A DNA stretch of 64,000 nucleotides from an uncultured Gammaproteobacteria bacterium (GTDB lineage Bacteria; Patescibacteriota; Microgenomatia; Levybacterales; UBA12049). This document shows positions 10,967 through 55,898 of this stretch, in pieces; position 1 is the first letter of the stretch, and every line of letters begins with the position of its first letter. The notes under the pieces were generated by a model. The model saw only the letters and a program-made list of their open reading frames with translations. It was not told where the DNA came from and searched no databases. A program made the position numbers and the translations under genes. The stretch lies in assembly GCA_964571255.1 (NCBI GenBank), contig CAZNAA010000001.1, positions 551,674-615,673 on the forward strand, given 5' to 3'.

Positions 10967-12349
10967 TTATTTTTTGTAAAAGACATTAACCAAAGTTCTC
11001 GTAACCGTAATTGCTGAAAACATGGAGACTAGGACTCCCAGTGCTAAGGTAACTGCAAACCCTTTAACAATTCCTGTCCCGAAATAGTATAAGACAGCAC
11101 TCGTTATAAGTGAAGCAATGTTTGAGTCCCGAATAGATAACCAGGCTCGAGAAAATCCTAGCTCTAGTGCCAAATCACGTGCTCTTCCAGCTCGAATCTC
11201 TTCTTTCACCCGTTCAAAAATAAGAATATTGGCATCCACTGCTATTCCAATGGAGAGAATAAATCCAGCAATGCCTGCAAGAGTCAGTGTGACAGGAACA
11301 ACCCTAAATAGAGATAGTGTGATCAAGGTATAGATAAAAAGAGCTACACTGGCAATAATTCCTAACCTGCCATATAACACACACATAAAGAGAACAATCA
11401 CAACAAATCCAATCCCTCCAGCAATGAGACTTTTCTTCAAAGACTCCTCACCCAGTGAGGCGCCAATTGCATGACGCTCAAGTACTGAAAGTGAAATAGG
11501 CAACGCACCAGCGTTCAGTTGAATTTGAAGTTGTTTTGCAAGTTCTACACTAAAATCACCTGAAATTACGGCATCTCCTGTTGTGATTGGTTCATTAACC
11601 CGTGGAGCTTCAACAACAAACTCATCAAGAGCAATTGCTACAATCTTGCCCACATTTCGTCTCGTAATATCTGCAAACTTTTTTGATCCATCTCCGGTAA
11701 ATTGGAGTTGTACCTGAGGTTTACCTGTTGTTTGATCAAAAGTGACATTAGCTGCTTTTAGATCAGCTCCTGTAAGATTTGTTTGTTTCGCTCTATCTCC
11801 AAAGAGCTGTGTGAGGCCATAGGGAAGTGCTGATGATGAGCCAATAAGAGTAGCTGACCCACTAGCCCCTTCTTCCCAAAAAGACAGTTTAGCGGTTTGC
11901 CCAATAAGAGAAAGTGCTTGATTCACATCCGTTACTCCTGGAAGCTCAGCAATCACTCGATACTCTTTCCCAACCTTTGCCGTTTGCACCAAAGGCTCAG
12001 ATACTCCAAATAGATTCACTCGCCTCTCGATAACATTTTTAGCTGACTCAAGTGCATTCTCCCTTTGATCTTGAGGGATATCTTTCATATCAGCTTGAAG
12101 AGTAATACTTGTTCCTCCCTCAAGGTCTAATCCTTTTTTAAAGGCAAGATCTTTCTGAAGTTGTACAGAACCTAAACGAACATTCCACTTATCTCCTCCA
12201 AAAATACGTTGCATTTTGATTTCACTTTTAGTAAAAGGTAGTTTGGGAATAGTGAAGGTAACAGGAATTGCAGGAAGGTTAATAAAAACACAAACGAGAG
12301 TAATAATAAAAATCAAAAAGAGGAATCTCTGAGATTCTTTTTTTCTCAT
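10967..12349 (-). CDS. secD: Protein translocase subunit SecD
   Basis: DLEGGTSITLQ periplasmic domain plus a C-terminal 6-TM bundle. secD-secF order. Confidence 0.85.
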   Translation of the reverse strand: MRKKESQRFLFLIFIITLVCVFINLPAIPVTFTIPKLPFTKSEIKMQRIFGGDKWNVRLGSVQLQKDLAFKKGLDLEGGTSITLQADMKDIPQDQRENALESAKNVIERRVNLFGVSEPLVQTAKVGKEYRVIAELPGVTDVNQALSLIGQTAKLSFWEEGASGSATLIGSSSALPYGLTQLFGDRAKQTNLTGADLKAANVTFDQTTGKPQVQLQFTGDGSKKFADITRRNVGKIVAIALDEFVVEAPRVNEPITTGDAVISGDFSVELAKQLQIQLNAGALPISLSVLERHAIGASLGEESLKKSLIAGGIGFVVIVLFMCVLYGRLGIIASVALFIYTLITLSLFRVVPVTLTLAGIAGFILSIGIAVDANILIFERVKEEIRAGRARDLALELGFSRAWLSIRDSNIASLITSAVLYYFGTGIVKGFAVTLALGVLVSMFSAITVTRTLVNVFYKK

Positions 12350-37687: not shown

Positions 37688-38688
37688 AAAGGGATAGTAT
37701 TACTTGGTCTTTTTTGCAAAAAAGCATGGATATTTTCAATGGTTACCTTAAGAATTTTATGAAGTGACTGGGTACTATTAAAGGCGTTATGAGGAGTAAT
37801 AAAGACATTTTCTTTTGATAAAAGAACGTGATTTAAGACTTGTGTTTTCAAATCACAAGACGAAAGGAAATTCTTTGAAAGAAGCTGTCTTTCCTCTTTA
37901 ATATTACACTCCTCCTCAATCACATCAAGTCCTACCTTTGAGAGTATCCCTTCATCTATTGCCTTTACTAATCCTTCTGTATCAATAAGAGCTCCTCTCG
38001 CTGTATTAATGAGGATACTTCCTTTTTTCATAAGAGATAGTTTGTTATAGGAGAGAAGATGATGGGTTTCTTTAGTATACGGCAAGTGAAGACTAAGAAT
38101 ATCTGACTTTTTTAACACCTCATCCATCTCTGCAAATTTCACTCCATAGATTTCACTATCCTCTGGATTAGGGTGCCGGGTATAAACAAGCGTTTTCATG
38201 CCAAAACCCCGGGCAATTTGTGAGACATGCTTGCCAATATTGCCAAAGCCCAAAAGACCTATGGTTTTTCCAAAAATATCCATTCCAGAAAGATTAGTTA
38301 AATCAAAACTCCCTTTTCTTGTTTCCTCAACTGAGGGGATAATGTTTCGAGTCATAGCAAGAAGTAGAGCAAAGGTATGCTCAGCAACAGAATGTGTCCC
38401 GTATTCAGGGACGTTGACCAAAGTAATTTTCTTTTCTTTACACTCCGCAACGTCAATATGGTCAAATCCCGTAGAGCGAGTCGCAATGAGTTTTAATTTA
38501 GGTAAAGAAGCAATAATTTCTTTTGTAACTTCTGAGTAGATAAAAACACAAAGAATATCAATTTCAGAAAGGGAGGAAACATGTTCGGGAGTTAAGTGTT
38601 CATGGAAGAAAAGAAGATTTTCTTTCCCAAATGCTTCCTCAAAAAAAGGTTTTTCCCATTCTTCAACTTCAAACATGGCAGCTTTCAT
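37684..38688 (-). CDS. D-isomer-specific 2-hydroxyacid dehydrogenase (D-LDH/PGDH family)
   Basis: GLLGFGNIGKHVSQIARGFGMKTLVYTRH NAD-binding motif. Catalytic His region ITPHNA. Confidence 0.7.
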   Translation of the reverse strand: MKAAMFEVEEWEKPFFEEAFGKENLLFFHEHLTPEHVSSLSEIDILCVFIYSEVTKEIIASLPKLKLIATRSTGFDHIDVAECKEKKITLVNVPEYGTHSVAEHTFALLLAMTRNIIPSVEETRKGSFDLTNLSGMDIFGKTIGLLGFGNIGKHVSQIARGFGMKTLVYTRHPNPEDSEIYGVKFAEMDEVLKKSDILSLHLPYTKETHHLLSYNKLSLMKKGSILINTARGALIDTEGLVKAIDEGILSKVGLDVIEEECNIKEERQLLSKNFLSSCDLKTQVLNHVLLSKENVFITPHNAFNSTQSLHKILKVTIENIHAFLQKRPSNTIPL

Positions 38689-38718
38689 ATAGTCATCATA
38701 CCATGAAGAAGAGGATGT

Positions 38719-39336
38719 TTATACCTTCATCTCTAAACTTTTCCAGAGATAGCGAGAAGCGTATGAGCGATATGGTATCCATTGAGAAACAATCACATCA
38801 GCAGTTTCTGAAGTAACGGGATCAAGACCATACAGTTTTTTTATCGCATTACGGAGTCCTAAATCTCCATAGGAGAAGATATCCTCTCTTCCCATGCTAA
38901 AGAGTAAAAACATCTCAGCAGTCCATCTCCCAACTCCATTAATTTGAATAAGCGTAGCAATAATATCCTCATTACTCATCTCATCAAATTTTTCAAACAG
39001 TAGTGGGCTATCTATGACATGTTGAGCAATGGATTTGACATATTTCACTTTGGCGTACGACATGCCAACTCCTCTCATCATTTCAGTATCTATTTCCATT
39101 ACTTTCTCTGGAGTAATTTTTTTGTCAAGAAAAAGAGCTTCAAATCGAGCAAAGATAACGTCAGCCACCTTTATTGATAACTGTTGGGAAACAATGGATT
39201 CAATAAGGGAGATAAAATAATCTGTTGAATGAGTTTGAGGTAAAACGCCACAGGATATAATTACACTAGCAAGAATTGGATCTTTCTCTGAAAGGAATAA
39301 AGCTATTTCCGAAGGAGTTTTCTTTACTGAAGTCAT
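38719..39336 (-). CDS. HhH-GPD DNA glycosylase (AlkA/DNA-3-methyladenine glycosylase II-like)
   Basis: LIQINGVGRWTAEMFLLFSMGREDIFSYGDLGLRNAI, helix-hairpin-helix with GD. Confidence 0.65.
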   Translation of the reverse strand: MTSVKKTPSEIALFLSEKDPILASVIISCGVLPQTHSTDYFISLIESIVSQQLSIKVADVIFARFEALFLDKKITPEKVMEIDTEMMRGVGMSYAKVKYVKSIAQHVIDSPLLFEKFDEMSNEDIIATLIQINGVGRWTAEMFLLFSMGREDIFSYGDLGLRNAIKKLYGLDPVTSETADVIVSQWIPYRSYASRYLWKSLEMKV

Positions 39337-39385
39337 ATCAAAAAAGTAGCTGTATCATACCACGAATCTGGAGGAGTAACTAAAT

Positions 39386-40861
39386 TTACTTTAACGGATC
39401 TTTGTATAGTTGGTCTAATAAATTTAGCGCTCTTGCCTGTCCTTTTTCATCTTCTCCCTGAGTGGCAAGTAAGGCAGCCTTAAAAAGGTCCGTAGCGAGA
39501 GCAGCATTAAGACCACTTATAGAACGTTGGAGAAGGACTATACCCATTTCCCTTCGAATATTATCTAAATACATAAAAATAGCGGTCGGATTAAGTGAAG
39601 GGTATACTAGAGATAATATTCCTACTTGTGTTTCCAACTGTGCAAATATATCTCTCTTTGATACATCATCTAATTCCTTAGTAAGCCTCTTTTTTTCTCT
39701 AATAATCACAGGATTACTTTCTAAAATATCTTTTGTTGCATCGAATACTTCTTGAGAAACTGACTCTAGTGTAGTCTCTCCACTTCCCGATTTATCTTTC
39801 AAACCAAGATTTGCTACAGCTTCCCTATCTGTCTCAAACGGAGATCTATACGTACCAGCTTGCTCAGCAGTAGTTATTTTGTCTCTTAATTTACGAATGG
39901 TCTGTTGGGTTTGCTCATCCAATTCCTCAATCTCTCCTTGTGCTATATCATCTCCAGTAAGAATTGCATCAATAATTCCTCGTACGCGTGTATTCTCTTG
40001 GTATTCTTGAGTGGATACACGTAATCGTTGCTCAACTTGTTCTAAAAGCCCTCTATAATCTGCATCTAGGTGTTTTATTGTATCTTCTTGAACCGGTGTA
40101 CCAGCAAGTACTGATTGTAAAGCAATCTGAGAAGCTATTTGGGTATCTAATGATTGATCTGCCTCTTTTTTCACACTTTCTCCAGATACTACGGGTAAAG
40201 ACGCACCGGTAGGATCTTCTAATTTTGTAGAGGTAGTTCCCAATGCTTCACCTCGTTGTCTTTGTCTGTATCTTCTCTCTCTCATTTGTCGATAATAAGA
40301 AAGATTTCCTTCAACATCGCCAACTATTCTCTGCATCTTTGAATCCCTTTTCCCTGCACTTCTTAAGGCACTAAACCCAGCTATAACAGGATCTAAATCT
40401 GTCTCTACACCAGGATTAGGATTTGCTATTACTTCGTCAACTACTTCCAATAATCCCTCTCGGATAAGTCGCAAGTAGGAAAGTGATGTCGGATCAGTAA
40501 TTCCATCAGGGCCAACAATTATTCCTTCATTGTCATCTGCTGTATACGTAAATGTATCCACAACTAATTCATCAAAAGTACCATTTGAAAAATAATCTAT
40601 TATTTGAATAGTGGTAGTTGTAGGATGCTCAGATTCTTCGGGAACTCGAAAACGAACTACCCAGGTAGGAGAACTACCCGTTTCTTGCAAAAAATCAGTC
40701 ATCCTGAAAGCCATCTGAGCTATCCTATTTTGACTCTCTATCTCACTGGCATCCTTGTTTGTAGGTCTGTAGACAAAATCAGTTAGTTTTGCACCAAAAT
40801 GAGTAATATCTGCTCGTAGTCTCTCTTGCGCTACTCCTTGTTCTGATTCTTCAATATTCAT
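39386..40861 (-). CDS. Hypothetical 491-aa acidic, Q/E/R-rich protein (island gene, no recognisable domain)
   Basis: Long ORF with different composition from its neighbours. No Walker or other catalytic motif found. Confidence 0.4.
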   Translation of the reverse strand: MNIEESEQGVAQERLRADITHFGAKLTDFVYRPTNKDASEIESQNRIAQMAFRMTDFLQETGSSPTWVVRFRVPEESEHPTTTTIQIIDYFSNGTFDELVVDTFTYTADDNEGIIVGPDGITDPTSLSYLRLIREGLLEVVDEVIANPNPGVETDLDPVIAGFSALRSAGKRDSKMQRIVGDVEGNLSYYRQMRERRYRQRQRGEALGTTSTKLEDPTGASLPVVSGESVKKEADQSLDTQIASQIALQSVLAGTPVQEDTIKHLDADYRGLLEQVEQRLRVSTQEYQENTRVRGIIDAILTGDDIAQGEIEELDEQTQQTIRKLRDKITTAEQAGTYRSPFETDREAVANLGLKDKSGSGETTLESVSQEVFDATKDILESNPVIIREKKRLTKELDDVSKRDIFAQLETQVGILSLVYPSLNPTAIFMYLDNIRREMGIVLLQRSISGLNAALATDLFKAALLATQGEDEKGQARALNLLDQLYKDPLK

Positions 40862-40926
40862 ACTATAAGCGTATGAAAATACTTACTTCTTGTCAACAAA
40901 AATACAACTATGTACACTACATATGT

Positions 40927-43212
40927 ATGGATAAAGATCGTCCAGCAATAACAACTGCAGCCGATAGAGCAACCCAAGTGGCTCAAGAAGGAGGCCTTGT
41001 ACCTCGTAGTCGTCAACCTCTTCCCACGAATCTGCCTGCTTCTAATGCCACAGAAGGAGATAATGATACTGCAAATACTAGATCAGAACCTATACCTACC
41101 AAAGCTTCCCCTGAACCGAGAGGATTAGGTAGCAACGTAGCTGCTTGGTGGAGCAGAAGAAATAATCAAAGACAAGAAGCAGAACAACCCGAAAGGAGAG
41201 CTCCTAACCCACCACTTCCTGAAGATCCAACTCATACCATAGGAGGGAGTAGATATGTAGACTTAAACGCACCAGCTGGACCTCTTGTAATAGCTGAAAG
41301 AGCTAGAGCACAAGCGGACGTAGATAGAGCATTAGCAGACATACAGGCTCGAGCAGGAACTGTAGAACAACATACAGGAGGAGCAATATATCAACCAGTA
41401 ATACCTGAGACAAGGGACGATCCTCAAGGAGGAGGAAATAATCAAGATAAAGGAAGAAGCACTACTGATAAAATTATACCTTTTCTTGCAGAACATAAAG
41501 GGAAATTCTTTTTTGTAGGAAGTGGTCTCATTTTAGGAGCATTCGCAAGAGCCGCCAATGTAGATCCTGACATTTTGAGAGGCTCTATTCGAATAGCTGC
41601 AGGAGCAGGAGGAGCAATAGGTGCTTCAGGACTAGGAGAATATGTGTCTCATTGGATAAATAGTAAAGCTACTGACGGCTCAAGACTAGATAGACTCTCA
41701 AGAATGAGTGAAAAAGGACTTGGTCGCTTGAGACAAGCATCTATGATGGGTGCATTAGCAGCAGGAGGAGTTGCAACGGAAGAGTTTTTAAGTGATCCTA
41801 ATCGAGCAATAGAGGCATTACAACAAGTTCCAGCTGAGTTAGGAGGAGCTATTGCACATCCTATAGACACTCTTGAAGAAACATGGGACAATTTAACAGA
41901 TGCACTTACCCCAGAAGCACCTACTAAAGTTCCTGCCGCTACTCCTACAGCTCCAGGCGTAACTCCAACCGTTCCAGAAACTCCAACTGTTACAGCGACT
42001 ATTACTCCTGATACCGGATTAACATCTTTAGGAACGCCTACACCATCAGGAACTCCTACTGCAGCCGCTACTCCCACATCAACTGTAACTAGTACACCTA
42101 CTATTATTGCATCTCCTTCACCTTCTGCCACCCCTGGGACTGGAAGTTCTACCCCTAGTACTCTTCCTCCTATTATAGACAACCCACCAGGAGGAGATCC
42201 TGGAACCGGAAGTTCTCTCCCTGGTACTCTTCCTCCTATTGTAGATAACCCACCAGGAGGAGATCCTGGAACTGGGGGGAGTCAAACGCAGATTCAGCCA
42301 GTAAATCATATCGATCCAGATAGAGGATGGAGAGAAAGAGGGCCAGGATTTAGTGATTTACCTGAAAACAAGATAGATATTACTCCTGAATATGATTTCG
42401 TCATCAATGGAAATCGAGTTAAAGGGAATTTGGATACTCTCACCTTTAATGATAATAGATGGGTCATATTCGAAAACGGAGAGAAAAACGTTAATCTCTT
42501 GAAGCAAAACCATGAAATCGAGGGATATCATATAAATCCTACTCGTTTGAAAGAAGAATTATATCCAACGCTTGGGTTATATGGTGATAAGGAACTAATT
42601 CCAGGGAGTTTTGAATATAAACTTTTTCATTTTGCCAACGGAACTGGAACTGAATTCCAAGACATTTTTGAAGATCCAGAGTTTGAAATGGATCTAAAAA
42701 ATAGAGGCATTCTAGAAATAGATAGACCTGATCCTACAACTATTGTGCTAGAAGAACCAGTAATTCCAAATCATGTGGATGTTGATAAAGGATATATAGA
42801 AAAACCATCTGGATATAACGATGATCTTGCAGTTAGCCCTGAAACAGAGCCATATCATAAACAACTTGATGTAATTGCTCCTTATGGAGGAAATAAAATT
42901 ACAGGCTCTATTTTTGATGGAACACTGAAATTTGGTGAAAAAGACTGGATTATTTTTGAAAATGGACAAAGACATATTGAGGAAATAACAACTTTACAAA
43001 ACTTTACTGAACCATATTATATTGATGAGGAAAGATATAAAGAAGAACTAGAAAAGCTTATTGTTCTGTGGTCAAAAGGAGAGTTAAAAAATCCGGAAGA
43101 TCAAAAAGTTTTCTATCTATCCGATGGTGTACCAGGTGAATATGATAAGCTTAAAAGAGATCCTGCAATTATTCAAACACTGAAAGACAGAGGTATTATA
43201 AAAACTAGGTAA
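40927..43212 (+). CDS. Large membrane-anchored protein (about 760 aa): Pro-rich cytoplasmic N-terminus, Gly-zipper TM segments, extracellular PT linker, 2x22-aa tandem repeat, duplicated C-terminal WxIFENG-containing domain
   Basis: Start at second M (ICMDKD) preferred, giving 762 aa (the ORF-track start at 40873 gives 779 aa). FFFVGSGLILGAFARAANV and IRIAAGAGGAIGASGLG hydrophobic segments. PTxPT linker. Repeats PGTGSS(T/L)P(S/G)TLPPI(I/V)DNPPGGD x2. NRWVIFENGEKN... and KDWIIFENGQRH... duplicated modules. Confidence 0.5.
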   Translation: MDKDRPAITTAADRATQVAQEGGLVPRSRQPLPTNLPASNATEGDNDTANTRSEPIPTKASPEPRGLGSNVAAWWSRRNNQRQEAEQPERRAPNPPLPEDPTHTIGGSRYVDLNAPAGPLVIAERARAQADVDRALADIQARAGTVEQHTGGAIYQPVIPETRDDPQGGGNNQDKGRSTTDKIIPFLAEHKGKFFFVGSGLILGAFARAANVDPDILRGSIRIAAGAGGAIGASGLGEYVSHWINSKATDGSRLDRLSRMSEKGLGRLRQASMMGALAAGGVATEEFLSDPNRAIEALQQVPAELGGAIAHPIDTLEETWDNLTDALTPEAPTKVPAATPTAPGVTPTVPETPTVTATITPDTGLTSLGTPTPSGTPTAAATPTSTVTSTPTIIASPSPSATPGTGSSTPSTLPPIIDNPPGGDPGTGSSLPGTLPPIVDNPPGGDPGTGGSQTQIQPVNHIDPDRGWRERGPGFSDLPENKIDITPEYDFVINGNRVKGNLDTLTFNDNRWVIFENGEKNVNLLKQNHEIEGYHINPTRLKEELYPTLGLYGDKELIPGSFEYKLFHFANGTGTEFQDIFEDPEFEMDLKNRGILEIDRPDPTTIVLEEPVIPNHVDVDKGYIEKPSGYNDDLAVSPETEPYHKQLDVIAPYGGNKITGSIFDGTLKFGEKDWIIFENGQRHIEEITTLQNFTEPYYIDEERYKEELEKLIVLWSKGELKNPEDQKVFYLSDGVPGEYDKLKRDPAIIQTLKDRGIIKTR
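42133..42279 (+). repeat. 66-nt in-frame tandem repeat (2 full copies plus a partial third)
   Basis: cctggga/accggaagttct...cttcctcctatt(a/g)tagacaacccaccaggaggagat repeated at 42133-42198 and 42199-42264, with a partial copy to 42279. Confidence 0.8.
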
Positions 43213-43215
43213 CTT

Positions 43216-43530
43216 ATGCAACAAGACGTCTTTACTCAATTTATTACTAAGCTAAAAGAAGAAAAAAGTGAAGAACAAATCACGAAACTTTTGGCTGCTT
43301 TGTATCAATTTCAGGCAGAAGCATTGTATGAAATTATGCTTGAGGTATTAACTGATCAGGATTTTCAAGCAATTGAAAAGATTGAAGATGACGATGAAGC
43401 AGAGCAAGAGATAAACAGATTATTTAAAGAAAGAACTCAACTGACTCCTCAAGAGTTTGTCGTTAAGCTTCGAGATACGCTTTCTCAAACCTATTTAGAT
43501 AATCAACCTCCGAAAAAATCTACAGCTTAA
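43216..43530 (+). CDS. Small acidic helical protein (104 aa), translationally coupled to the large upstream gene
   Basis: ATG 3 nt after the upstream TAA. D/E-rich (EKIEDDDEAEQEINRLF). Confidence 0.4.
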   Translation: MQQDVFTQFITKLKEEKSEEQITKLLAALYQFQAEALYEIMLEVLTDQDFQAIEKIEDDDEAEQEINRLFKERTQLTPQEFVVKLRDTLSQTYLDNQPPKKSTA

Positions 43531-43572
43531 CTCCTCTGAAAAGAACAAAAATTGATATGCTACTATATTTTA

Positions 43573-44298
43573 TTAAGATACTGGTTTTTTGGTAATAAAA
43601 TCCCAAGAGGGCCCAATGTATACATCGCCTATTGTTACCTGAACAGGATCTTTTGCAAGTGTATGACGAAGGTTAATAAGCTCTCTTATATAATTTTCTC
43701 GAGTAGCGGGATCGAGTTGAGAGGGTAGTTCAACAATACGACCTAGTGTCATATGTAATATGTGTATAGGCAAAGGCCTCATACCAATTGCTTCATATTT
43801 TTCCGATAAATTTCTTCTTACCTCTACAATTTGCTCGGGTATGACATCTGCTGCTACCGTTACGTTACTTTGCGTTTCTTGACCACTTTTACTCTGACCT
43901 ACTAACAAATACTTATACACCAGCTCCGTACCTGCAAGTGCACCTATCAAATCTTGGGCAGAAAGATCTGTTGTAAGATCTGTGAAATCCGATTGCATTG
44001 TTTCTTTATCACCTTCTGGATATTCGCCTTCTTGAAGAGTTGTGTGCAACCCAATATCTCGACCAGCTAAAAGAAATTCTATGCCATATCTGCTTGCAAC
44101 TTGGGCCATAGATTCTATAAGCCTTTCTTGTACTTTAGCCGTGGAGACTGCATCAGGAATACCAAACACACTGAATCGTCTTTGGAAACGCTCAGGAAAT
44201 TCACTAAATCTTTGTATTTGTTCTGTTCTGAAAGCACGTCTTCCTCCACTATTTAATGAGGCAAGTTCTCTTAATAATGAAGGGTTTTCTACTGTCAT
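43573..44298 (-). CDS. 2H phosphoesterase superfamily protein (LigT/2',5'-RNA ligase/cyclic phosphodiesterase-like)
   Basis: Two H-x-T-x motifs about 90 residues apart: GLHTTLQEG and ILHMTLGRI. Confidence 0.5.
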   Translation of the reverse strand: MTVENPSLLRELASLNSGGRRAFRTEQIQRFSEFPERFQRRFSVFGIPDAVSTAKVQERLIESMAQVASRYGIEFLLAGRDIGLHTTLQEGEYPEGDKETMQSDFTDLTTDLSAQDLIGALAGTELVYKYLLVGQSKSGQETQSNVTVAADVIPEQIVEVRRNLSEKYEAIGMRPLPIHILHMTLGRIVELPSQLDPATRENYIRELINLRHTLAKDPVQVTIGDVYIGPSWDFITKKPVS

Positions 44299-44372
44299 AC
44301 CGGGATTATAGCATTAGGAGGAGATTATTGTCATTTTAAGAAAGATTCAGGTAATGACACTTTTCCCATTAT

Positions 44373-44401
44373 TTGACATTTTGTCAACTTCGTACTTAAA
44401 T
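44373..44401 (+). promoter_or_regulatory. Promoter-like element with a perfect palindrome TTGACAtttTGTCAA upstream of the HNH gene
   Basis: TTGACA (44373-44378), 17-nt spacer, TTAAAT, then 8 nt to the ATG with no SD. The 6-3-6 inverted repeat overlaps the -35. Confidence 0.35.
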
Positions 44402-44409
44402 AAAGATAT

Positions 44410-45024
44410 ATGACTCGTACCAGAGGTAAGAGATTTAAAAGAGATTACTCTAATAAAGATCTTATTGACTACCTAAATAGTATCTATAAAGAACTAGGTC
44501 GATCCCCAACATCTAGAGACCTACAACAATTTCCAGGACCTGCACCTCGAACAATAATAAGAAGATTCGAAAGTTGGACCAAGGCATTAAAAAAGGCCAA
44601 TATTCGACCACAAACTCATCAAATATTACCAAAAGAAGGAACATTTATTAGAAGAAACTGGAAACAGATGACTGATGAACAGATATCCCATACTTTAGGT
44701 ATTAGTATTCATATTATTAAATATTATCGTATGAATTTGGATTTATGGAAAAATAGAAAAGGCACAGCAAGAGCAACTTTCAGAAAAAAAGCATTTAATA
44801 TATATGGTAAAAACTGTGAATCATGTAATCTATCTATCTGTGAATGGCATCATATCATTCCTAAATCAACTGATCCACAAAGTTGGTGTATTTTATGTCC
44901 AACATGTCACGCAGTTATTACTCGCAAACTAATTAGTATAAATTCCAGAGAGGAGATAAAGAGCAAACTGAAACCTTTTATTAAGAATCTTTATCAGATG
45001 ATTAATTTTGGATCCGATGTTTAG
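44410..45024 (+). CDS. Free-standing HNH (homing-type) endonuclease
   Basis: C-terminal HNH/Zn motif CESCNLSICEWHHIIPKSTDPQSWCILCPTCHAVI. N-terminal RRFESWTKAL motif seen in phage/homing HNH proteins. 3' end overlaps the secA stop by 23 nt (convergent). Confidence 0.7.
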   Translation: MTRTRGKRFKRDYSNKDLIDYLNSIYKELGRSPTSRDLQQFPGPAPRTIIRRFESWTKALKKANIRPQTHQILPKEGTFIRRNWKQMTDEQISHTLGISIHIIKYYRMNLDLWKNRKGTARATFRKKAFNIYGKNCESCNLSICEWHHIIPKSTDPQSWCILCPTCHAVITRKLISINSREEIKSKLKPFIKNLYQMINFGSDV

Positions 45025-47716
45025 GAGAGTTTATCAATCCACACTTCTTCCATTTAATTCCACTCCCACAGGGGCAAAGGTCATTTCTTCCTAGTTTTTT
45101 ATGTCCTTCTCTCTCACTGGATGAAGCACTAAGGGCTTTTTTTTGTTTTTTCTTCCCTGTATCACTCACTTCACTTTCTGGAGTATTAGTCATAATGTTT
45201 TGTGGAGTATGGGTATGAGGAGTAGCAACATGGACTTTAAAGATTTGATGAATAACATCATCCTCAATTGAGAAAATAAGTTGCTCAAACATCCTAAATC
45301 CTTCATTCTTGTATTCAACTAAAGGCTCTTTTTGTGCATAGGCCCGCAGTCCCACTCCAGATCTTAAGTTTTCCATTGCATCCAGATGACTCATCCAATA
45401 CTTATCAATAACGGAGAGAATTACAAATCTCTCAGCTTGTCTCATGACGTCCTCTCCTAATTCTTTCTCCTTCATCTCATACGTTTTAAGGGTTACATCA
45501 ACTAATAAATCTTCTTTCTCTTTATTGATTTGTAGTGCACTTAATTGGGTAATGAGTTGTTTTTGTGACGCTTCATCAAAAGGAATAATGGTCACAAACT
45601 CTTTCATTAATGCATCATCTGCTGATACGTTTTCTGTAATTGTGGTTACATCAATTGCCCGATTGGCAAGAAGTGAGATATGTGAGCTAAACCACGAAAG
45701 AACTTTTTCTTTTGTATCTTTTCCCTCAAGAGCTTGACGACGGAGTGAATAAATAATCTCTCGTTGTTTGTTCAAAACGTCATCATATTCAACAGTGTAT
45801 TTTCGATAATCAAAATAGTGTTTTTCTACCTTTATTTGTGCATTTTCAATTGCTTTTGAAACCAATGGGTGCTCCAGGGGAACATCCTCTGGCATATTAA
45901 ACCTCCCCATAATCCCAGCAATTCGGTCTCCTCCAAATAGACGCATGATTTCATCATCAAGTGAAACAAAGAAACGAGACTTTCCTGGATCTCCTTGTCG
46001 TCCTGCTCGACCTCGTAATTGATTATCAATTCGACGAGACTCATGCCTTTCTGTTCCAATAACATAGAGTCCTCCTGCAGTAAGGACTTCATCATGTGAC
46101 TTTTTCCAATTCTTCCACTCTTTAGAAGAGGTATCAGTTGTTCCGTCTTCTTGTTTTGGTGGTTCTCCTCCGAGAATAATATCAACGCCTCTTCCTGCCA
46201 TGTTGGTGGCAATCGTTACTGCTCCAATTCGTCCAGCATCTGCAATAATCTGTGCTTCTTTAGCGTGATTTTTTGCATTCAGAACAACATGGGGAACTTT
46301 TCGTCTTTTGAGAAGCTCTGAAAGAATCTCATTTTTATCAATTGAGGTTGTTCCAACCAGTACCGGTTGACCCGTTTTATGAACATTTTGAATCTCCTCA
46401 ACTACTGCTGTGTATTTAGCCCGAGACGTTTTATATACAGCATCAGACATATCATCTCGAACAATTGGATTGTGCGTTGGGATAACGACTACTTCTAATT
46501 TATAGATTTTGTAAAACTCTTCTGCTTCCGTAACAGCAGTCCCTGTCATTCCCGCAAGACGCTCATACATTCTGAAGTAATTTTGAAGAGAAACCGTTGC
46601 TAAAGTTTTTGATTCTCTTTGAATAGTCACTTTTTCTTTGGCCTCTAGAGCTTGATGAATTCCTTCTGACACACGAACTCCTGGACGAAGTCTCCCAGTG
46701 AATTCATCAACTAAAATAACTTGACTTTCCCTGACAATATATTCTTTTTCCCTGTGATACAGAGTGCGGGCCTTAAGTGCTGCTTCTAAATGGTATACCG
46801 TATCAAAATCAGTTTCATAAATATTATCTACTCCGTATAGTTTCTCTATTTTTCCAATTCCATGATCTGTCAAATGAGCTGTTCGCATTTTCTCGTCCAC
46901 CTTATAATCAACCTCCGGAGTTAATTTCTCAACTAACGTAGCGTATTCATAGTATTTGGAAGAAGGTTCTGAATCTGGTGCTGAGATGATATGAGGAGTA
47001 CGGGCTTCATCAATAAGAACTGAGTCTACTTCGTCAACAATAGCAAAGTAATGATCTCTCTGGACTACTTGTTCCATGTTTTGAGCCATGTTGTCTCGAA
47101 GATAGTCAAAACCATATTCTGAATTAATTCCGTAGAGAATATCTGCCTGGTATGCTTCTTTTCTACTAATTGGACGAAGATGTTTTAACCGATAATCCGT
47201 TACTCCTTCTTCTCTATAGGTTGGATCAAATAAAAATTGCTGCTCATTAATAATGGATGCCACCCTTAGTCCTAATAATTGAAATACTGGTCCCATCCAT
47301 CCAGCGTCTCTTCTAGCTAAGTAATCATTAACGGTTACTAAATGCACACCTTTTCCAGTTAAAGAATGAAGAAAAAGAGCAGGAATAGCAGAAAGAGTTT
47401 TCCCTTCTCCTGTCTTTTGTTCTGAGATTTTTCCTTGAGAAAGAACAATCGCAGACATCATCTGGACATCATGAGCACGAAGCCCAATAGTTCTTTTCGC
47501 TGCTTCTCTAATAAGAGCAAATGCTTCAACTCGCAAATCATCAATCGTCTCTTTTCCTTCAAGTCGTTTTTTAAACTCAACTACTTTTTTAGGAAAATCC
47601 GTGTCTTTCAGTTTTTGATATTCTTTTTCTTTTTGCTCAATTGCAGTAACGAGAGGTTTTAATTTATCAATTTCTTTATTATTAGTATTGAAAAAACGTG
47701 ACAACAGAGGAATCAT
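45002..47716 (-). CDS. secA: Preprotein translocase ATPase SecA
   Basis: 904 aa. DEAD-like motor motifs. C-terminal zinc finger CPCGSGIKWKKCG. Confidence 0.9.
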   Translation of the reverse strand: MIPLLSRFFNTNNKEIDKLKPLVTAIEQKEKEYQKLKDTDFPKKVVEFKKRLEGKETIDDLRVEAFALIREAAKRTIGLRAHDVQMMSAIVLSQGKISEQKTGEGKTLSAIPALFLHSLTGKGVHLVTVNDYLARRDAGWMGPVFQLLGLRVASIINEQQFLFDPTYREEGVTDYRLKHLRPISRKEAYQADILYGINSEYGFDYLRDNMAQNMEQVVQRDHYFAIVDEVDSVLIDEARTPHIISAPDSEPSSKYYEYATLVEKLTPEVDYKVDEKMRTAHLTDHGIGKIEKLYGVDNIYETDFDTVYHLEAALKARTLYHREKEYIVRESQVILVDEFTGRLRPGVRVSEGIHQALEAKEKVTIQRESKTLATVSLQNYFRMYERLAGMTGTAVTEAEEFYKIYKLEVVVIPTHNPIVRDDMSDAVYKTSRAKYTAVVEEIQNVHKTGQPVLVGTTSIDKNEILSELLKRRKVPHVVLNAKNHAKEAQIIADAGRIGAVTIATNMAGRGVDIILGGEPPKQEDGTTDTSSKEWKNWKKSHDEVLTAGGLYVIGTERHESRRIDNQLRGRAGRQGDPGKSRFFVSLDDEIMRLFGGDRIAGIMGRFNMPEDVPLEHPLVSKAIENAQIKVEKHYFDYRKYTVEYDDVLNKQREIIYSLRRQALEGKDTKEKVLSWFSSHISLLANRAIDVTTITENVSADDALMKEFVTIIPFDEASQKQLITQLSALQINKEKEDLLVDVTLKTYEMKEKELGEDVMRQAERFVILSVIDKYWMSHLDAMENLRSGVGLRAYAQKEPLVEYKNEGFRMFEQLIFSIEDDVIHQIFKVHVATPHTHTPQNIMTNTPESEVSDTGKKKQKKALSASSSEREGHKKLGRNDLCPCGSGIKWKKCGLINSPKHRIQN

Positions 47717-54605: not shown

Positions 54606-54695
54606 GTCTTCTAGAGTGTGAGGCTAACGTAATTTCTTACGCTTGACAAGACTTCTTGAGAGACTATACGATACTATTATAGCTCAATCTGCCAT

Positions 54696-55898
54696 ATGAA
54701 TTTTAATGGAAGAAAATTATTACTTCTTGGATTTATTATCGTTCTTCTTGTAGGAATTCCGGCTACTCTTTTTTTAGTACAACAACAGCAAGAGACTCGG
54801 TCTCGAGCTGAAAAATCAACTACTCTTTCGATTACCCCAGAATCTACCTCAAAAGAGGTAGGACAAGCTGTTCCTTTGGACATTATGGTAAATCCAGGAA
54901 CCAACCTTGTTTCCTTTGTGAAATTAGAAATTACGTACGACGAAACCAAACTTTCTATTAATGAAAGTACTGGATTTGTTCCAAATGCAGGAGCTTTCCC
55001 TATTACCGTTGAAGGACCTGCTTTTACTCCAGGAAAGATTTTAGTTTCTCTCTCCATTGGAGCAAATACGACAGCTGCTATTAGTAATATAACTAAGGTT
55101 GGTACACTCAACTTTACTACCCTTGAAACAACGAGTGGTGGAACAACAACCGTTGGGCTTGGTCCACAAACACAAGTACTCTCAGCTGGTGCCAATGATC
55201 AAGCTAGTGAAGATACTCTCTCAACAACTGTTCCTGCTCGAGTAACAATTGGAGGATCTCCTGTTATTACTCCGTCAACTACAGTAACTCCATCATTTAC
55301 TCCAACTCCTACTGTCACTACAGCACCTAATTCTCCCACAGCTACTCCGACAACACCTCCCACGTTGACTCCAACTCCTACGTTGATTCCAACACCTACA
55401 TCTACACAAAGTGCTTCTACACCTAATCAACCACCTGTATGTAGTGCACTTAATCTAGATCGAGGGACAACAGGTACAGCTCCTTATTCTCTTACTTTTA
55501 CTGCTTTAGGAAATGATACCGACGGAACAATTACTCAAGCCAGCTTTAACTTTGGGGATGGACCAGTAACAAACGTCTCAACCGGAGGAGGCATTGGAAG
55601 CAAGTCAATTAATACTCAAATTGCTCATACGTATAATAATGCTGGAACCTATACTGCCTATGCTATTCTTACTGATAATAGCGGAGCAGTGAGTAATTTT
55701 AACACCTGTAAAACAACCATTACGGTAAACAGCGGAACTGGAGGATCTGGCTCAACAAGTGGAGGATCTTCTACTGGATCGACAGCGACTACTGCACCTA
55801 CTATTGCCCCAACTGGTCCAAGTACCGTACTTGTTAGTGCAGGAGCAGTCCTTGGAGCACTCTCTCTGATTGGAGCTTTCGTCTTCTTCCTTCTCTAA
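54696..55898 (+). CDS. Cell-surface protein: signal/TM, cohesin-like beta domain, PT linker, PKD domain, C-terminal hydrophobic anchor
   Basis: PTPTxxPT linker. PKD motifs FNFGDGPV...HTYNNAGTYTAYAILTDNSGA. C-terminal VLVSAGAVLGALSLIGAFVFFLL. Confidence 0.55.
   Translation: MNFNGRKLLLLGFIIVLLVGIPATLFLVQQQQETRSRAEKSTTLSITPESTSKEVGQAVPLDIMVNPGTNLVSFVKLEITYDETKLSINESTGFVPNAGAFPITVEGPAFTPGKILVSLSIGANTTAAISNITKVGTLNFTTLETTSGGTTTVGLGPQTQVLSAGANDQASEDTLSTTVPARVTIGGSPVITPSTTVTPSFTPTPTVTTAPNSPTATPTTPPTLTPTPTLIPTPTSTQSASTPNQPPVCSALNLDRGTTGTAPYSLTFTALGNDTDGTITQASFNFGDGPVTNVSTGGGIGSKSINTQIAHTYNNAGTYTAYAILTDNSGAVSNFNTCKTTITVNSGTGGSGSTSGGSSTGSTATTAPTIAPTGPSTVLVSAGAVLGALSLIGAFVFFLL

What the first reader, a model, noticed from the sequence alone, without database searches (positions are those of the whole stretch)
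39386..45024. About 5.6 kb GC-richer insertion between an AlkA-like glycosylase and secA, encoding large proteins with no recognisable homologs, a 2H phosphoesterase and a homing-type HNH endonuclease
By eye this stretch has higher G+C and different codon choice (gga/gca/aga-rich) than the flanking housekeeping genes. Strand polarity also breaks here: the roughly 25 kb minus-strand run ends, and divergent and convergent gene pairs appear. The stretch holds a 491-aa acidic protein, a membrane/surface protein of about 760 aa, a small acidic protein, a 2H phosphoesterase and an HNH endonuclease. None has an obvious housekeeping role. I see no integrase, tRNA or direct repeats at the borders. The HNH gene overlaps the 3' end of secA. 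This is the best candidate in the window for an acquired accessory module, possibly a surface-interaction or conflict system.
Basis: partly seen in the sequence, partly recalled or inferred. Interest (0 to 1): 0.7.

Follow-up and report, generated by a model that had tools for sequence, protein, structure and literature searches.

The report
Layered gene insertions at secA end
What looked like one foreign 5.6 kb island is an inherited trio of fast-evolving, lineage-specific genes plus two small later insertions, the last being a selfish homing-endonuclease gene that landed in the final codons of the essential secA gene and rewrote its tail.

Summary
The five genes exist as described, in a Microgenomates (CPR) genome. 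The stretch is not GC-richer (0.383 vs 0.378), and it is not a single insertion. Two closely related genotypes, whose flanking proteins are 92-98% identical to the window's, resolve three layers.

1. p491, p779 and p104 (39386-43530) lie between alkA and secA in all three genotypes. Their synonymous divergence matches the flanks, so they were inherited rather than recently acquired. p491 and p779 evolve fast (dN/dS 0.52 and 0.32, against 0.02-0.07 for the flanks) and use deviant codons. The p779+p104 pair recurs in distant metagenomic contigs, once with a p491-like gene. The C-terminal domain of p779 models confidently (pLDDT 93) but has no structural neighbour in PDB or BFVD.

2. An ~0.8 kb segment carrying an orphan 2H phosphoesterase (43533-44349) is present in two of the three genotypes.

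3. A 666 bp segment carrying an HNH homing-type endonuclease (44375-45040) is found only in the window. It inserted within the last codons of secA, duplicated ~18 bp, and left a decaying relic of the old SecA tail. SecA now has a new tail that lacks the zinc-ligand His.

No defence-system, phage, intron, tRNA or integrase signal was found. This is a neat natural insertion series, but mostly of known kinds.

The parts
38719..39336 (-). Left flank: AlkA-like HhH-GPD DNA glycosylase
   Evidence: Pfam HhH-GPD 4.3e-15. 84% identical to the L081 orthologue, dN/dS 0.15.
39386..40861 (-). p491: acidic (pI 4.7), mostly helical, probably cytoplasmic protein of unknown function. It is transcribed divergently from p779.
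   Evidence: Its only homologues are P0003 and P0004. It is 54-61% identical to its L081 orthologue while the flanks are 92-98% identical; dN/dS is 0.52 with dS 0.50, like the flanks. Codon z = 7.3. The AF2 model is poor (pLDDT 48). A remote homologue sits in the same divergent position in L089 (E 1.4e-9 in a local search).
40927..43212 (+). p779. The ORF opens at 40873, but the likely start is M19 at 40927, giving 761 aa. Domains in order: disordered Pro-rich N-terminus (40927-41466); Gly/Ala-rich hydrophobic segments (41467-41910); Pro/Thr-rich linker (41911-42294), which contains a 66-bp tandem duplication at 42133-42264; and two copies of a ~105-aa C-terminal domain (about 42295-42726 and 42847-43209).
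43216..43530 (+). p104: small acidic helical protein and conserved partner of p779, lying 3 nt downstream of it
   Evidence: 95-97% identical in the close relatives, dN/dS 0.05-0.09. Homologues 53% and 41% identical lie immediately downstream of p779-family genes in L089 and L090. Codon usage is ordinary (z -1.0).
43533..44349 (.). Indel 1 (~817 bp). It is present in the window and in genotype B (L084/L094). In genotype C (L081/L095) it is replaced by 7 bp, and there the p104 and secA stop codons overlap.
   Evidence: Junction alignments and BLAST coordinates. No target duplication was seen.
43573..44298 (-). p241: orphan 2H-phosphoesterase-like protein (HxT motifs at residues 85 and 182) with its own promoter-like site at 44334-44305
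   Evidence: Pfam LigT_PEase E 2.6e-4, 21.6 bits against a cut-off of 23.3. Motif positions. Only one 90% cluster exists in 5.8 billion proteins. dN/dS is 0.37 against L084. The promoter-like site matches 11 of 12 positions and has a TG. Codon z = 6.2.
44336..44374 (-). Relic of the former SecA C-terminal tail. Read on the minus strand it gives K*WEKCHYLNLS*. It is now non-coding, between the 2H and HNH genes. Its last 18 nt (44357-44374) form the left copy of the duplicated target.
   Evidence: It aligns to the live SecA tail KKWKKCHYPNLS* of L084. L084 nt 553-566 match both window 44357-44370 and 45041-45054.
44375..45040 (.). Indel 2 (666 bp): the HNH cassette. It is present only in the window genotype and absent from L084/L094 and L081/L095.
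   Evidence: The window state was recovered at 100% identity in three independent run assemblies.
44410..45024 (+). p204: free-standing HNH homing-type endonuclease (basic, pI 10.1). Its N-terminus is a homing-endonuclease-associated repeat. Its C-terminus carries CxxC...HH...CxxCH.
   Evidence: PF18780 1.1e-14. PHROG HNH families at 5e-5 and 7e-4. Weak alignment to the IscB HNH domain. pI. No paralogue in the window.
45002..45058 (-). New SecA tail (45002-40, GLINSPKHRIQN*), partly the HNH 3' end read antisense. Next to it lies the right copy of the duplicated target (45041-58, IKWKKC).
   Evidence: The Pfam SEC-C motif matches only positions 1-16 of 19 here, against 1-19 in the relative. The 60 nt of secA next to the junction are 80% identical to L084, against 94% for the rest.
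45002..47716 (-). Right flank: secA
   Evidence: Pfam SecA domains. 95.6% identical to the L081 SecA.

Best explanation
The 5.6 kb stretch is a composite of three layers of different age.

Layer 1 (39386-43530): a vertically inherited, lineage-specific gene trio.
- p779 is most likely a membrane-anchored envelope protein. It has a disordered cytoplasmic N-terminus, Gly/Ala-rich membrane segments and a Pro/Thr-rich stalk. Two copies of a ~105-aa domain of unrecognised fold sit at the outer end.
- p104 is its conserved small cytoplasmic partner.
- p491 is a divergently transcribed cytoplasmic partner.
- p491 and p779 evolve about ten times faster at non-synonymous sites than their neighbours. 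This fits relaxed or diversifying selection on a surface-contact function. That functional reading is inferred, not shown.

Layer 2 (43533-44349): an ~0.8 kb indel at the convergent p104/secA junction. It carries an orphan 2H phosphoesterase with its own promoter-like site. It is probably a gain in the ancestor of the window genotype and genotype B.

Layer 3 (44375-45040): a free-standing HNH homing-type endonuclease gene, inserted only in the window lineage.
- It landed inside the last codons of secA, directly after the third Cys codon of the SEC-C zinc motif.
- The event duplicated ~18 bp (codons KKWKKC).
- It stranded the old tail (HYPNLS*) as a decaying relic upstream of the HNH gene.
- SecA now ends in a new 12-residue tail without the canonical His ligand.

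The layered structure and the polarity of the HNH event are shown by comparison. Nuclease activity, homing and the protein functions are inferred.
For: Relatives and layer 1:
- In L081/L095, flanking proteins are 92-98% identical and synteny is the same from ftsX to secA. p491 and p779 are only 54-64% identical in BLAST segments, while p104 is 95% identical.
- dS is uniform across the block and its flanks (0.49-0.80). dN/dS is 0.52 for p491 and 0.32 for p779, against 0.02-0.07 for housekeeping genes and 0.046 for p104. No sub-region exceeds 1.
- The module recurs elsewhere. L089 has a p491-like gene (-), then a PP2C protein, then a p779-like gene, then a p104-like gene (53% identical). L090 has a p779-like gene followed by a p104-like gene (41% identical), next to rplK.
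- The C-domain family has about 20 remote members with the same architecture.
- The confident model has no PDB or BFVD neighbour.
- A GH5/CBM60 cellulase (72-2213) and a PKD protein with a hydrophobic N-terminus read by eye as a signal peptide (54696-55898), both in the same window, also use PT-rich linkers.

Layers 2 and 3:
- Three allelic states exist: C has neither gene, B has the 2H gene only, and the window has both. States B and C were each recovered from two samples.
- The relic tail and the duplication are shown.
- SEC-C is truncated.
- Divergence is elevated in the 60 nt next to the junction.
- secA nucleotide identity is A-B 0.94, A-C 0.87 and B-C 0.87 outside the last 60 nt, which gives the tree ((A,B),C).
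Against: - Only three genotypes are available and there is no outgroup with an alkA-...-secA arrangement. The 2H event could therefore be a loss in genotype C.
- The deviant codon usage of p491, p779 and p241 is unexplained. It would also fit an older horizontal origin of the trio.
- No homologue of the HNH gene was found beside secA in 80 other species, nor in phage or viral collections. Spread by homing is therefore not demonstrated.
- The two copies of the duplication match each other at only 13 of 18 positions, which is not significant within the window alone. The case rests on both copies aligning to the single-copy L084 sequence.
- The membrane topology of p779 rests on one marginal hydrophobic window.
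- The AlphaFold database could not be searched, so 'no structural neighbour' is limited to PDB and BFVD.
- The relatives' contigs have very low coverage. Each was, however, reproduced in a second sample.
Confidence: 0.7

Rival explanations
1. One reading: the whole 5.6 kb is one horizontally acquired accessory island inserted between alkA and secA.
For: Four of the five genes have deviant codon usage. The strand polarity breaks here. None of the five genes occurs within 10 kb of secA in 80 other species, including Microgenomates with SecA 52-65% identical. The genes are near-orphans.
Against: GC equals the contig average. There is no integrase, tRNA or border repeat. The trio sits at the same place in the related genotypes, with dS equal to the flanks. 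The right-hand part is resolved into two independent indels. p104 has native codon usage. An ancient single acquisition of the trio before the three genotypes split cannot be excluded.
Confidence: 0.12
2. The variable genes were lost, not gained. The ancestor carried the 2H gene (and perhaps the HNH gene), and genotypes B and C arose by precise deletions.
For: No outgroup fixes the polarity of the 2H indel, and no target duplication flanks it. 2H is under some purifying selection (dN/dS 0.37), so it is a working gene that could be old.
Against: For the HNH gene, the window contains both a live and a relic copy of the SecA tail codons, whereas L084 has one intact copy. That is the signature of an insertion. 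For the 2H gene, genotype C has a compact junction with overlapping stop codons, 2H has foreign-looking codon usage, and no homologues exist outside this lineage.
Confidence: 0.2
3. The divergently arranged 2H and HNH genes form one functional two-gene nucleic-acid repair or conflict cassette rather than a cargo gene plus a selfish endonuclease.
For: They share a 111-bp divergent intergenic region. 2H enzymes and HNH nucleases both occur in RNA/DNA conflict systems (general knowledge). HNH is single-copy and has no detected relatives in phage collections.
Against: Genotype B carries 2H alone, with the same promoter-like sequence, directly after secA. PADLOC gives no hit. The intergenic region is largely the stranded SecA tail. 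The HNH protein carries the homing-endonuclease-associated repeat.
Confidence: 0.08
4. p779 and p104 are a polymorphic toxin-immunity pair or another defence or conflict module.
For: The layout is a large fast-evolving protein followed at once by a small acidic protein. There is also a weak sub-threshold EntA_Immun match for p104 (E 0.028).
Against: No toxin, Rhs, LXG or secretion domain appears in Pfam, NCBIfam or PADLOC. The C-terminal domain is a duplicated, family-wide conserved module rather than a swappable tip. p104 is 95-97% conserved while p779 diverges, which is the opposite of toxin-immunity co-variation.
Confidence: 0.05

Closest known systems
Free-standing homing endonuclease genes of T4-like phages (seg and mob genes), in particular mobE, which inserted into nrdA of Aeromonas phage Aeh1 (reviewed in PMC2988022; PMC3045599)
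   Same: It is a stand-alone endonuclease gene, not inside an intron or intein. It is present or absent between near-identical genomes. It lies in or next to a highly conserved coding sequence. The host gene is altered by the insertion but kept open. Flanking divergence is elevated next to the insertion.
   Different: The host is a CPR bacterial chromosome, not a phage. The target is the SEC-C zinc-motif end of secA. The endonuclease combines a PF18780 repeat with a minimal HNH domain. The insertion is antisense and overlaps the host gene's new stop codon. An ~18-bp target duplication and a stranded relic tail are visible. No cleavage or homing data exist.
Homing-endonuclease-bearing insertions and group I introns in rRNA and tRNA genes of CPR/Patescibacteria (PMC13011429 and reference 33 therein)
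   Same: The host phylum is the same. Both are HNH-family homing endonucleases that colonise highly conserved genes in reduced genomes.
   Different: Here the target is a protein-coding gene, and no intron ribozyme is detectable. The insertion changes the protein's C-terminus instead of being spliced out.
2H phosphoesterase superfamily (LigT/ThpR RNA 2',3'-cyclic phosphodiesterases)
   Same: Two HxT motifs about 100 residues apart in the expected sequence context. There is a sub-threshold Pfam LigT_PEase match over the second lobe.
   Different: It is an orphan: one 90% cluster and no other detectable relatives. It has a ~40-residue N-terminal extension. Fold and activity were not tested.
Membrane-anchored envelope proteins that carry a Pro/Thr-rich stalk and a distal globular domain. 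RsgI-type anti-sigma factors of clostridia are an example. This is an architectural analogy drawn from general knowledge.
   Same: The order of parts matches: cytoplasmic N-terminal region, membrane segment(s), PT-rich linker, C-terminal globular domain(s). Secreted proteins of the same genome use the same kind of linker.
   Different: No anti-sigma or other known domain is present. The membrane segments are Gly/Ala-rich 'zipper'-like rather than a classical single helix. The distal domain matches no known family or solved fold. The partner is a small acidic protein, not a sigma factor.

Membership tests
Free-standing HNH homing endonuclease gene | HNH (beta-beta-alpha-metal) nuclease motif | tested here: met
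   The sequence contains CESC...WHHIIP...CPTCH. PHROG HNH endonuclease families match at 5.4e-5 and 6.7e-4. There is a weak alignment to the IscB HNH domain. Pfam HNH itself gave no match at E <= 0.1, so this is a divergent member.
Free-standing HNH homing endonuclease gene | DNA-binding module typical of homing endonucleases | tested here: met
   PF18780 'Homing endonuclease associated repeat', E 1.1e-14, 54.9 bits against a cut-off of 26.
Free-standing HNH homing endonuclease gene | Presence/absence polymorphism at one precise site between closely related genomes | tested here: met
   Window 44375-45040 is absent from L084/L094 (flanks 90-92% identical) and from L081/L095.
Free-standing HNH homing endonuclease gene | Target lies in a conserved sequence, and the endonuclease-bearing allele differs there | tested here: inconclusive
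   The insertion point is inside the SEC-C motif codons. The adjacent 60 nt are 80% identical to L084, against 94% elsewhere. The recognition site itself is unknown.
Free-standing HNH homing endonuclease gene | The enzyme cleaves the empty allele and the gene spreads by repair | not testable with these tools
   This needs an in vitro cleavage assay. No related copies beside secA were found in 80 species.
Free-standing HNH homing endonuclease gene | Not embedded in an intron or intein | tested here: met
   No Rfam intron match, even at E <= 10, in 43400-45300. The gene is antisense to secA and not in frame with it.
2H phosphoesterase superfamily | Two H-x-T/S-x motifs in two pseudo-symmetric lobes | tested here: met
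   HTTL at residue 85 and HMTL at residue 182.
2H phosphoesterase superfamily | Significant match to a curated family model | tested here: inconclusive
   Pfam LigT_PEase E 2.6e-4, 21.6 bits, below the gathering score of 23.3 and covering the second lobe only. No NCBIfam or PDB sequence match.
2H phosphoesterase superfamily | 2H fold | not tested
Horizontally acquired genomic island | Base composition differs from the host | tested here: not met
   GC 0.3825 against 0.3775. GC3 is slightly lower, not higher.
Horizontally acquired genomic island | Codon usage differs from the host | tested here: met
   z = 7.3, 8.9, 6.2 and 2.9 for four genes. p104 is not deviant.
Horizontally acquired genomic island | Integrase or transposase, tRNA target, flanking repeats | tested here: not met
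   Only the 666-bp HNH cassette has a short duplication.
Horizontally acquired genomic island | Absent from the same site in close relatives | tested here: not met
   Not met for 39386-43530, which is present in L081/L095 with dS like the flanks. Met only for 43533-45040.
Known anti-phage defence systems (PADLOC) | Any component matches a defence-system model | tested here: not met
   No hit except a chance-level Cas13d match at E 0.025.
Diversity-generating retroelement target | Template/variable repeat pair and a nearby reverse transcriptase | tested here: not met
   No long direct repeat pair in 38600-45200 other than the in-frame 66-bp tandem duplication. Divergence is spread over whole genes. 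Reverse transcriptase was not searched for window-wide.

The most novel reading that the evidence does not exclude
p491-p779-p104 is a previously undescribed envelope module specific to CPR bacteria. A membrane-anchored protein displays, on a Pro/Thr stalk, a ~105-aa domain with a new fold. That domain contacts the host cell, or serves as a phage receptor, of these episymbiotic bacteria. It would be serviced by a conserved small cytoplasmic partner (p104) and a rapidly evolving cytoplasmic partner (p491). Its fast evolution would reflect an arms race at the cell surface.
Probability: 0.25. Interest if true: 0.6.

Novelty: new member of a known kind. Interest (0 to 1): 0.35.

Why it matters
Three things follow from this result.

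First, it corrects a plausible-looking 'genomic island' call. Codon bias and orphan status here mark fast-evolving native genes, not a recent transfer.

Second, it gives an unusually clean natural time series: empty site, then cargo gene, then homing endonuclease. It shows a selfish endonuclease gene invading the 3' end of an essential protein-coding gene in a reduced CPR genome. The stranded old tail and a rewritten SecA zinc motif remain as footprints. This adds secA to the conserved genes known to be colonised in these bacteria.

Third, it flags a small, uncurated protein family. The family combines a p779 C-terminal domain with a small partner protein, and its confidently modelled domain has no solved structural relative. 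It is a concrete target for structural and cell-surface work on CPR bacteria.

Tried and rejected
- The AF2 model of p491 from a 3-sequence alignment was too poor to search with (pLDDT 47.9).
- The metagenome scan with the p104 alignment found nothing. The 18-sequence C-domain alignment was too diverse to scan with. A narrower alignment gave three loci that lack detectable p104-like or p491-like genes. They do have a differently sequenced small gene in the same position.
- The profile-profile link between the two small-partner families is weak (hhalign E 0.002, probability 14%), so homology is not claimed.
- p491-like proteins were not found in L090-L093, even with an enlarged profile.
- HNH relatives were absent from viral contigs and the phage database.
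- The intron hypothesis for the HNH cassette was considered because splicing would restore the relic ...C|HYLNLS* tail. It was rejected: no ribozyme signal, the 666-bp insert is almost entirely antisense ORF, and the duplicated codons would not be needed.
- Defence-system and polymorphic-toxin readings were rejected.
- A DGR reading was rejected.
- No region of p491 or p779 has dN/dS above 1, so positive selection is not demonstrated.
Full report
**Organism and gene content**

SecA of the window is at most 65% identical to any species representative in the genome collection. The best hits are Microgenomates/Levyibacteria-type CPR genomes. The flanks are an HhH-GPD (AlkA-like) glycosylase and secA.
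- The HNH protein p204 matches the homing-endonuclease-associated repeat PF18780 (1.1e-14) and PHROG HNH families.
- p241 has two HxT motifs (residues 85 and 182) and a just-sub-threshold LigT_PEase match.
- p491, p779 and p104 match nothing in Pfam, NCBIfam, PHROGs or PADLOC.
- The window contains no tRNA and no Rfam family.

**Composition**

The 'GC-richer' claim fails. The stretch has GC 0.3825 against 0.3775 for the rest of the window. Only the 41-42 kb window is raised (0.445), and that is the Pro/Thr/Gly/Ala-rich linker of p779. The 43-45 kb part is among the most AT-rich of the window. GC3 of the five genes is below average.

The 'different codon choice' claim holds. I compared each gene with codon usage simulated from the other genes, keeping its own amino-acid content. 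The z-scores are 7.3 (p491), 8.9 (p779), 6.2 (p241) and 2.9 (p204), but -1.0 for p104. The 58 other genes have mean 0.5, sd 1.2 and maximum 5.2. GCA and AGA are enriched; GGA is not. The minus-strand gene run (9110-40861) does end at p491.

**Close relatives resolve the block into layers**

Protein searches found almost no homologues: one for p779, three for p491 including itself, and one 90% cluster for p241. Their contigs are very informative.

Genotype C (L081, and a 99.98% identical contig L095 from another sample) has the same gene order from ftsX to groEL.
- Flanking proteins are 92-98% identical to the window's (SecA 95.6%). AlkA is 84% identical and p104 95%. p491 is only 54% identical and p779 59-64%.
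- In C the stop codons of p104 and secA overlap. Neither the 2H gene nor the HNH gene is present.

Genotype B (L084, and a 99.7% identical L094 from another sample) has secA, then 38 bp, then the 2H gene (91% identical), converging on p104 (97% identical). It has no HNH gene.

The window state, with both genes, was recovered at 100% identity in three run assemblies.

secA nucleotide identity is A-B 0.94, A-C 0.87 and B-C 0.87 outside the last 60 nt. The window therefore groups with B.

**Layer 1: p491, p779 and p104 were inherited, not recently acquired**

Between the window and C, synonymous divergence is the same in the trio (0.50, 0.66, 0.73) as in eight flanking genes (0.49-0.80). dN/dS is 0.52 for p491 and 0.32 for p779. 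It is 0.02-0.07 for housekeeping genes, 0.15 for alkA and 0.046 for p104. The trio was therefore already at this locus in the common ancestor, and two of its genes evolve under much weaker or diversifying constraint. No sub-region exceeds dN/dS of 1. The fastest parts are the disordered N-terminus of p779 (0.70) and the central and C-terminal parts of p491 (0.5-0.8). C-domain 1 of p779 is well conserved (0.12) and C-domain 2 less so (0.30). Much of the low overall identity of p779 comes from indels in its disordered region and PT linker, and from copy-number changes of short repeats.

**What the trio is**

The alignment with the orthologue shows that p779 probably starts at M19 (40927). Its parts, in order:
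- a ~180-residue Pro-rich disordered region;
- three Gly/Ala-rich hydrophobic segments, only one of which reaches a Kyte-Doolittle mean above 1.4;
- a Pro/Thr-rich linker;
- two copies of a ~105-aa domain.

An exhaustive HMMER scan of 1.84 billion representatives with the two-domain region found about 20 remote relatives at 28-47% identity. In most of them the domain lies at the C-terminus. The 17 sequences retrieved show the same overall architecture, and the ten scanned have no Pfam domain.

Genomic context of family members:
- In L089 a p104 homologue (53% identical) follows the p779-like gene directly. A p491-like gene lies upstream in divergent orientation, as in the window, with a PP2C-domain protein between them.
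- In L090 a p104 homologue (41% identical) again follows directly, beside rplK.
- In four more distant members (L088, L091-L093) a different small acidic helical gene (106-118 aa where complete) occupies the same position. Its homology to p104 is only hinted at.

None of these genes occurs within 10 kb of secA in 80 other species. The module is therefore conserved, but its position next to secA is specific to this lineage.

p491 itself is acidic and predicted mostly helical, and its model is unusable.

The same window encodes a GH5 cellulase with CBM60 modules and a PKD-domain protein. The PKD protein has a hydrophobic N-terminus (read by eye as a signal peptide) and a C-terminal hydrophobic anchor. 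Both use PT-rich linkers, so this linker type accompanies probably secreted or anchored proteins here. My best reading, which is inferred, is that p779 is an envelope protein whose distal domains face outward. p104 would be a conserved cytoplasmic partner.

**Layer 2: the 2H gene**

Relative to C, the window and B carry ~817 bp (43533-44349) in place of 7 bp. One breakpoint is 2 nt after the p104 stop codon. The other lies within the last four codons of secA, which changes the tail from HYPQTS* to HYPNLS*. No target duplication is seen. 2H has a strong promoter-like site (ATGACA-18-TATAAT with a TG, 11 of 12 positions) directly upstream, deviant codon usage and dN/dS of 0.37 against B. Gain in the ancestor of the window and B is the simpler reading, but loss in C is not excluded.

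**Layer 3: the HNH gene**

Relative to B, the window carries 666 extra bp (44375-45040).
- L084 positions 553-566 align to both window 44357-44370 and 45041-45054.
- The single L084 sequence ACACTTTTTCCATTTCTT is represented twice in the window. Each copy matches it at 15 of 18 positions, and the copies match each other at 13 of 18. That last figure is not significant by itself, which explains why the duplication is invisible without the comparison.
- On the secA strand, the copy to the right of the insert is the live ...GSGIKWKKC.
- The copy to the left of the insert continues as WEKCHYLNLS*. This is a mutated relic of the tail KKWKKCHYPNLS*, which is intact in B.

This shows that the HNH-bearing state is derived. 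SecA now reads through 12 new codons (GLINSPKHRIQN*), supplied partly by the antisense of the HNH 3' end. It has lost the His of the CxC-x8-CH zinc motif. Pfam SEC-C matches only positions 1-16 of 19 (30 bits), against 1-19 (38 bits) in the relative.

The 60 nt of secA next to the junction are 80% identical to B, against 94% for the remaining 506 nt, whereas B and C are 93% identical there. This fits a co-converted or target-immunising tract. No intron ribozyme is detectable. No paralogue exists in the window, and no relative was found in phage or viral collections.

These are the expected footprints of a free-standing homing endonuclease gene. Phage examples are reviewed in PMC2988022, and the mobE insertion into nrdA is described in PMC3045599. 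CPR bacteria are already known to carry homing endonucleases in rRNA and tRNA gene insertions (PMC13011429). Cleavage and homing themselves remain untested.

**Verdict**

Only the right-hand 1.5 kb is acquired, in two steps. The left-hand 4.1 kb is an inherited, fast-evolving, lineage-specific module, and there is no evidence for a defence system.

The mobile part is a new member of a known kind. The p779/p104 family, with its unmatched domain model, is the most novel element, but its function is unknown.

Noticed in passing
window 42133-42264; L081 about 11320-12220: The PT linker of p779 contains an in-frame 66-bp tandem duplication whose copies are 89% identical. The orthologue P0001 instead carries extra copies of a ~25-residue motif, 'DKGY(I/Q)EK.SG(F/Y)NDDPAVNPEAPH', between the two C-domains. 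Repeat copy number therefore varies between close genotypes.
   Followed up: partly
window 72-2213: A secreted-type GH5 cellulase with two CBM60 modules joined by PT-rich linkers (Pfam 9.7e-39 and 7.6e-30). This is a polysaccharide-degrading enzyme in a reduced CPR genome.
   Followed up: partly
window 54696-55898: A PKD-domain protein with a hydrophobic N-terminus (read by eye as a signal peptide), a PT-rich linker and a C-terminal hydrophobic anchor. A 172-aa ORF (54677-55195) overlaps it on the opposite strand and is probably spurious.
   Followed up: partly
L089 865-3249: In a distant version of the module, a 794-aa protein with a PP2C phosphatase domain (E 6.8e-7) sits between the p491-like and p779-like genes. 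This hints at a link to Ser/Thr phosphorylation.
   Followed up: no
L081/L094 (sample ERZ15185638) and L095/L084 (sample ERZ28620071): Genotypes B (2H only) and C (no insertion) were both recovered from each of two independent metagenome samples. They are 87% identical in secA, so the two lineages coexist.
   Followed up: partly
window 38719-39336: The AlkA-like glycosylase evolves clearly faster than the other flanking genes: 84% identity and dN/dS 0.15, against 0.02-0.07.
   Followed up: no
L088 102-1232: The gene upstream of one p779-family member looks by eye like an rve-type transposase. Not verified.
   Followed up: no
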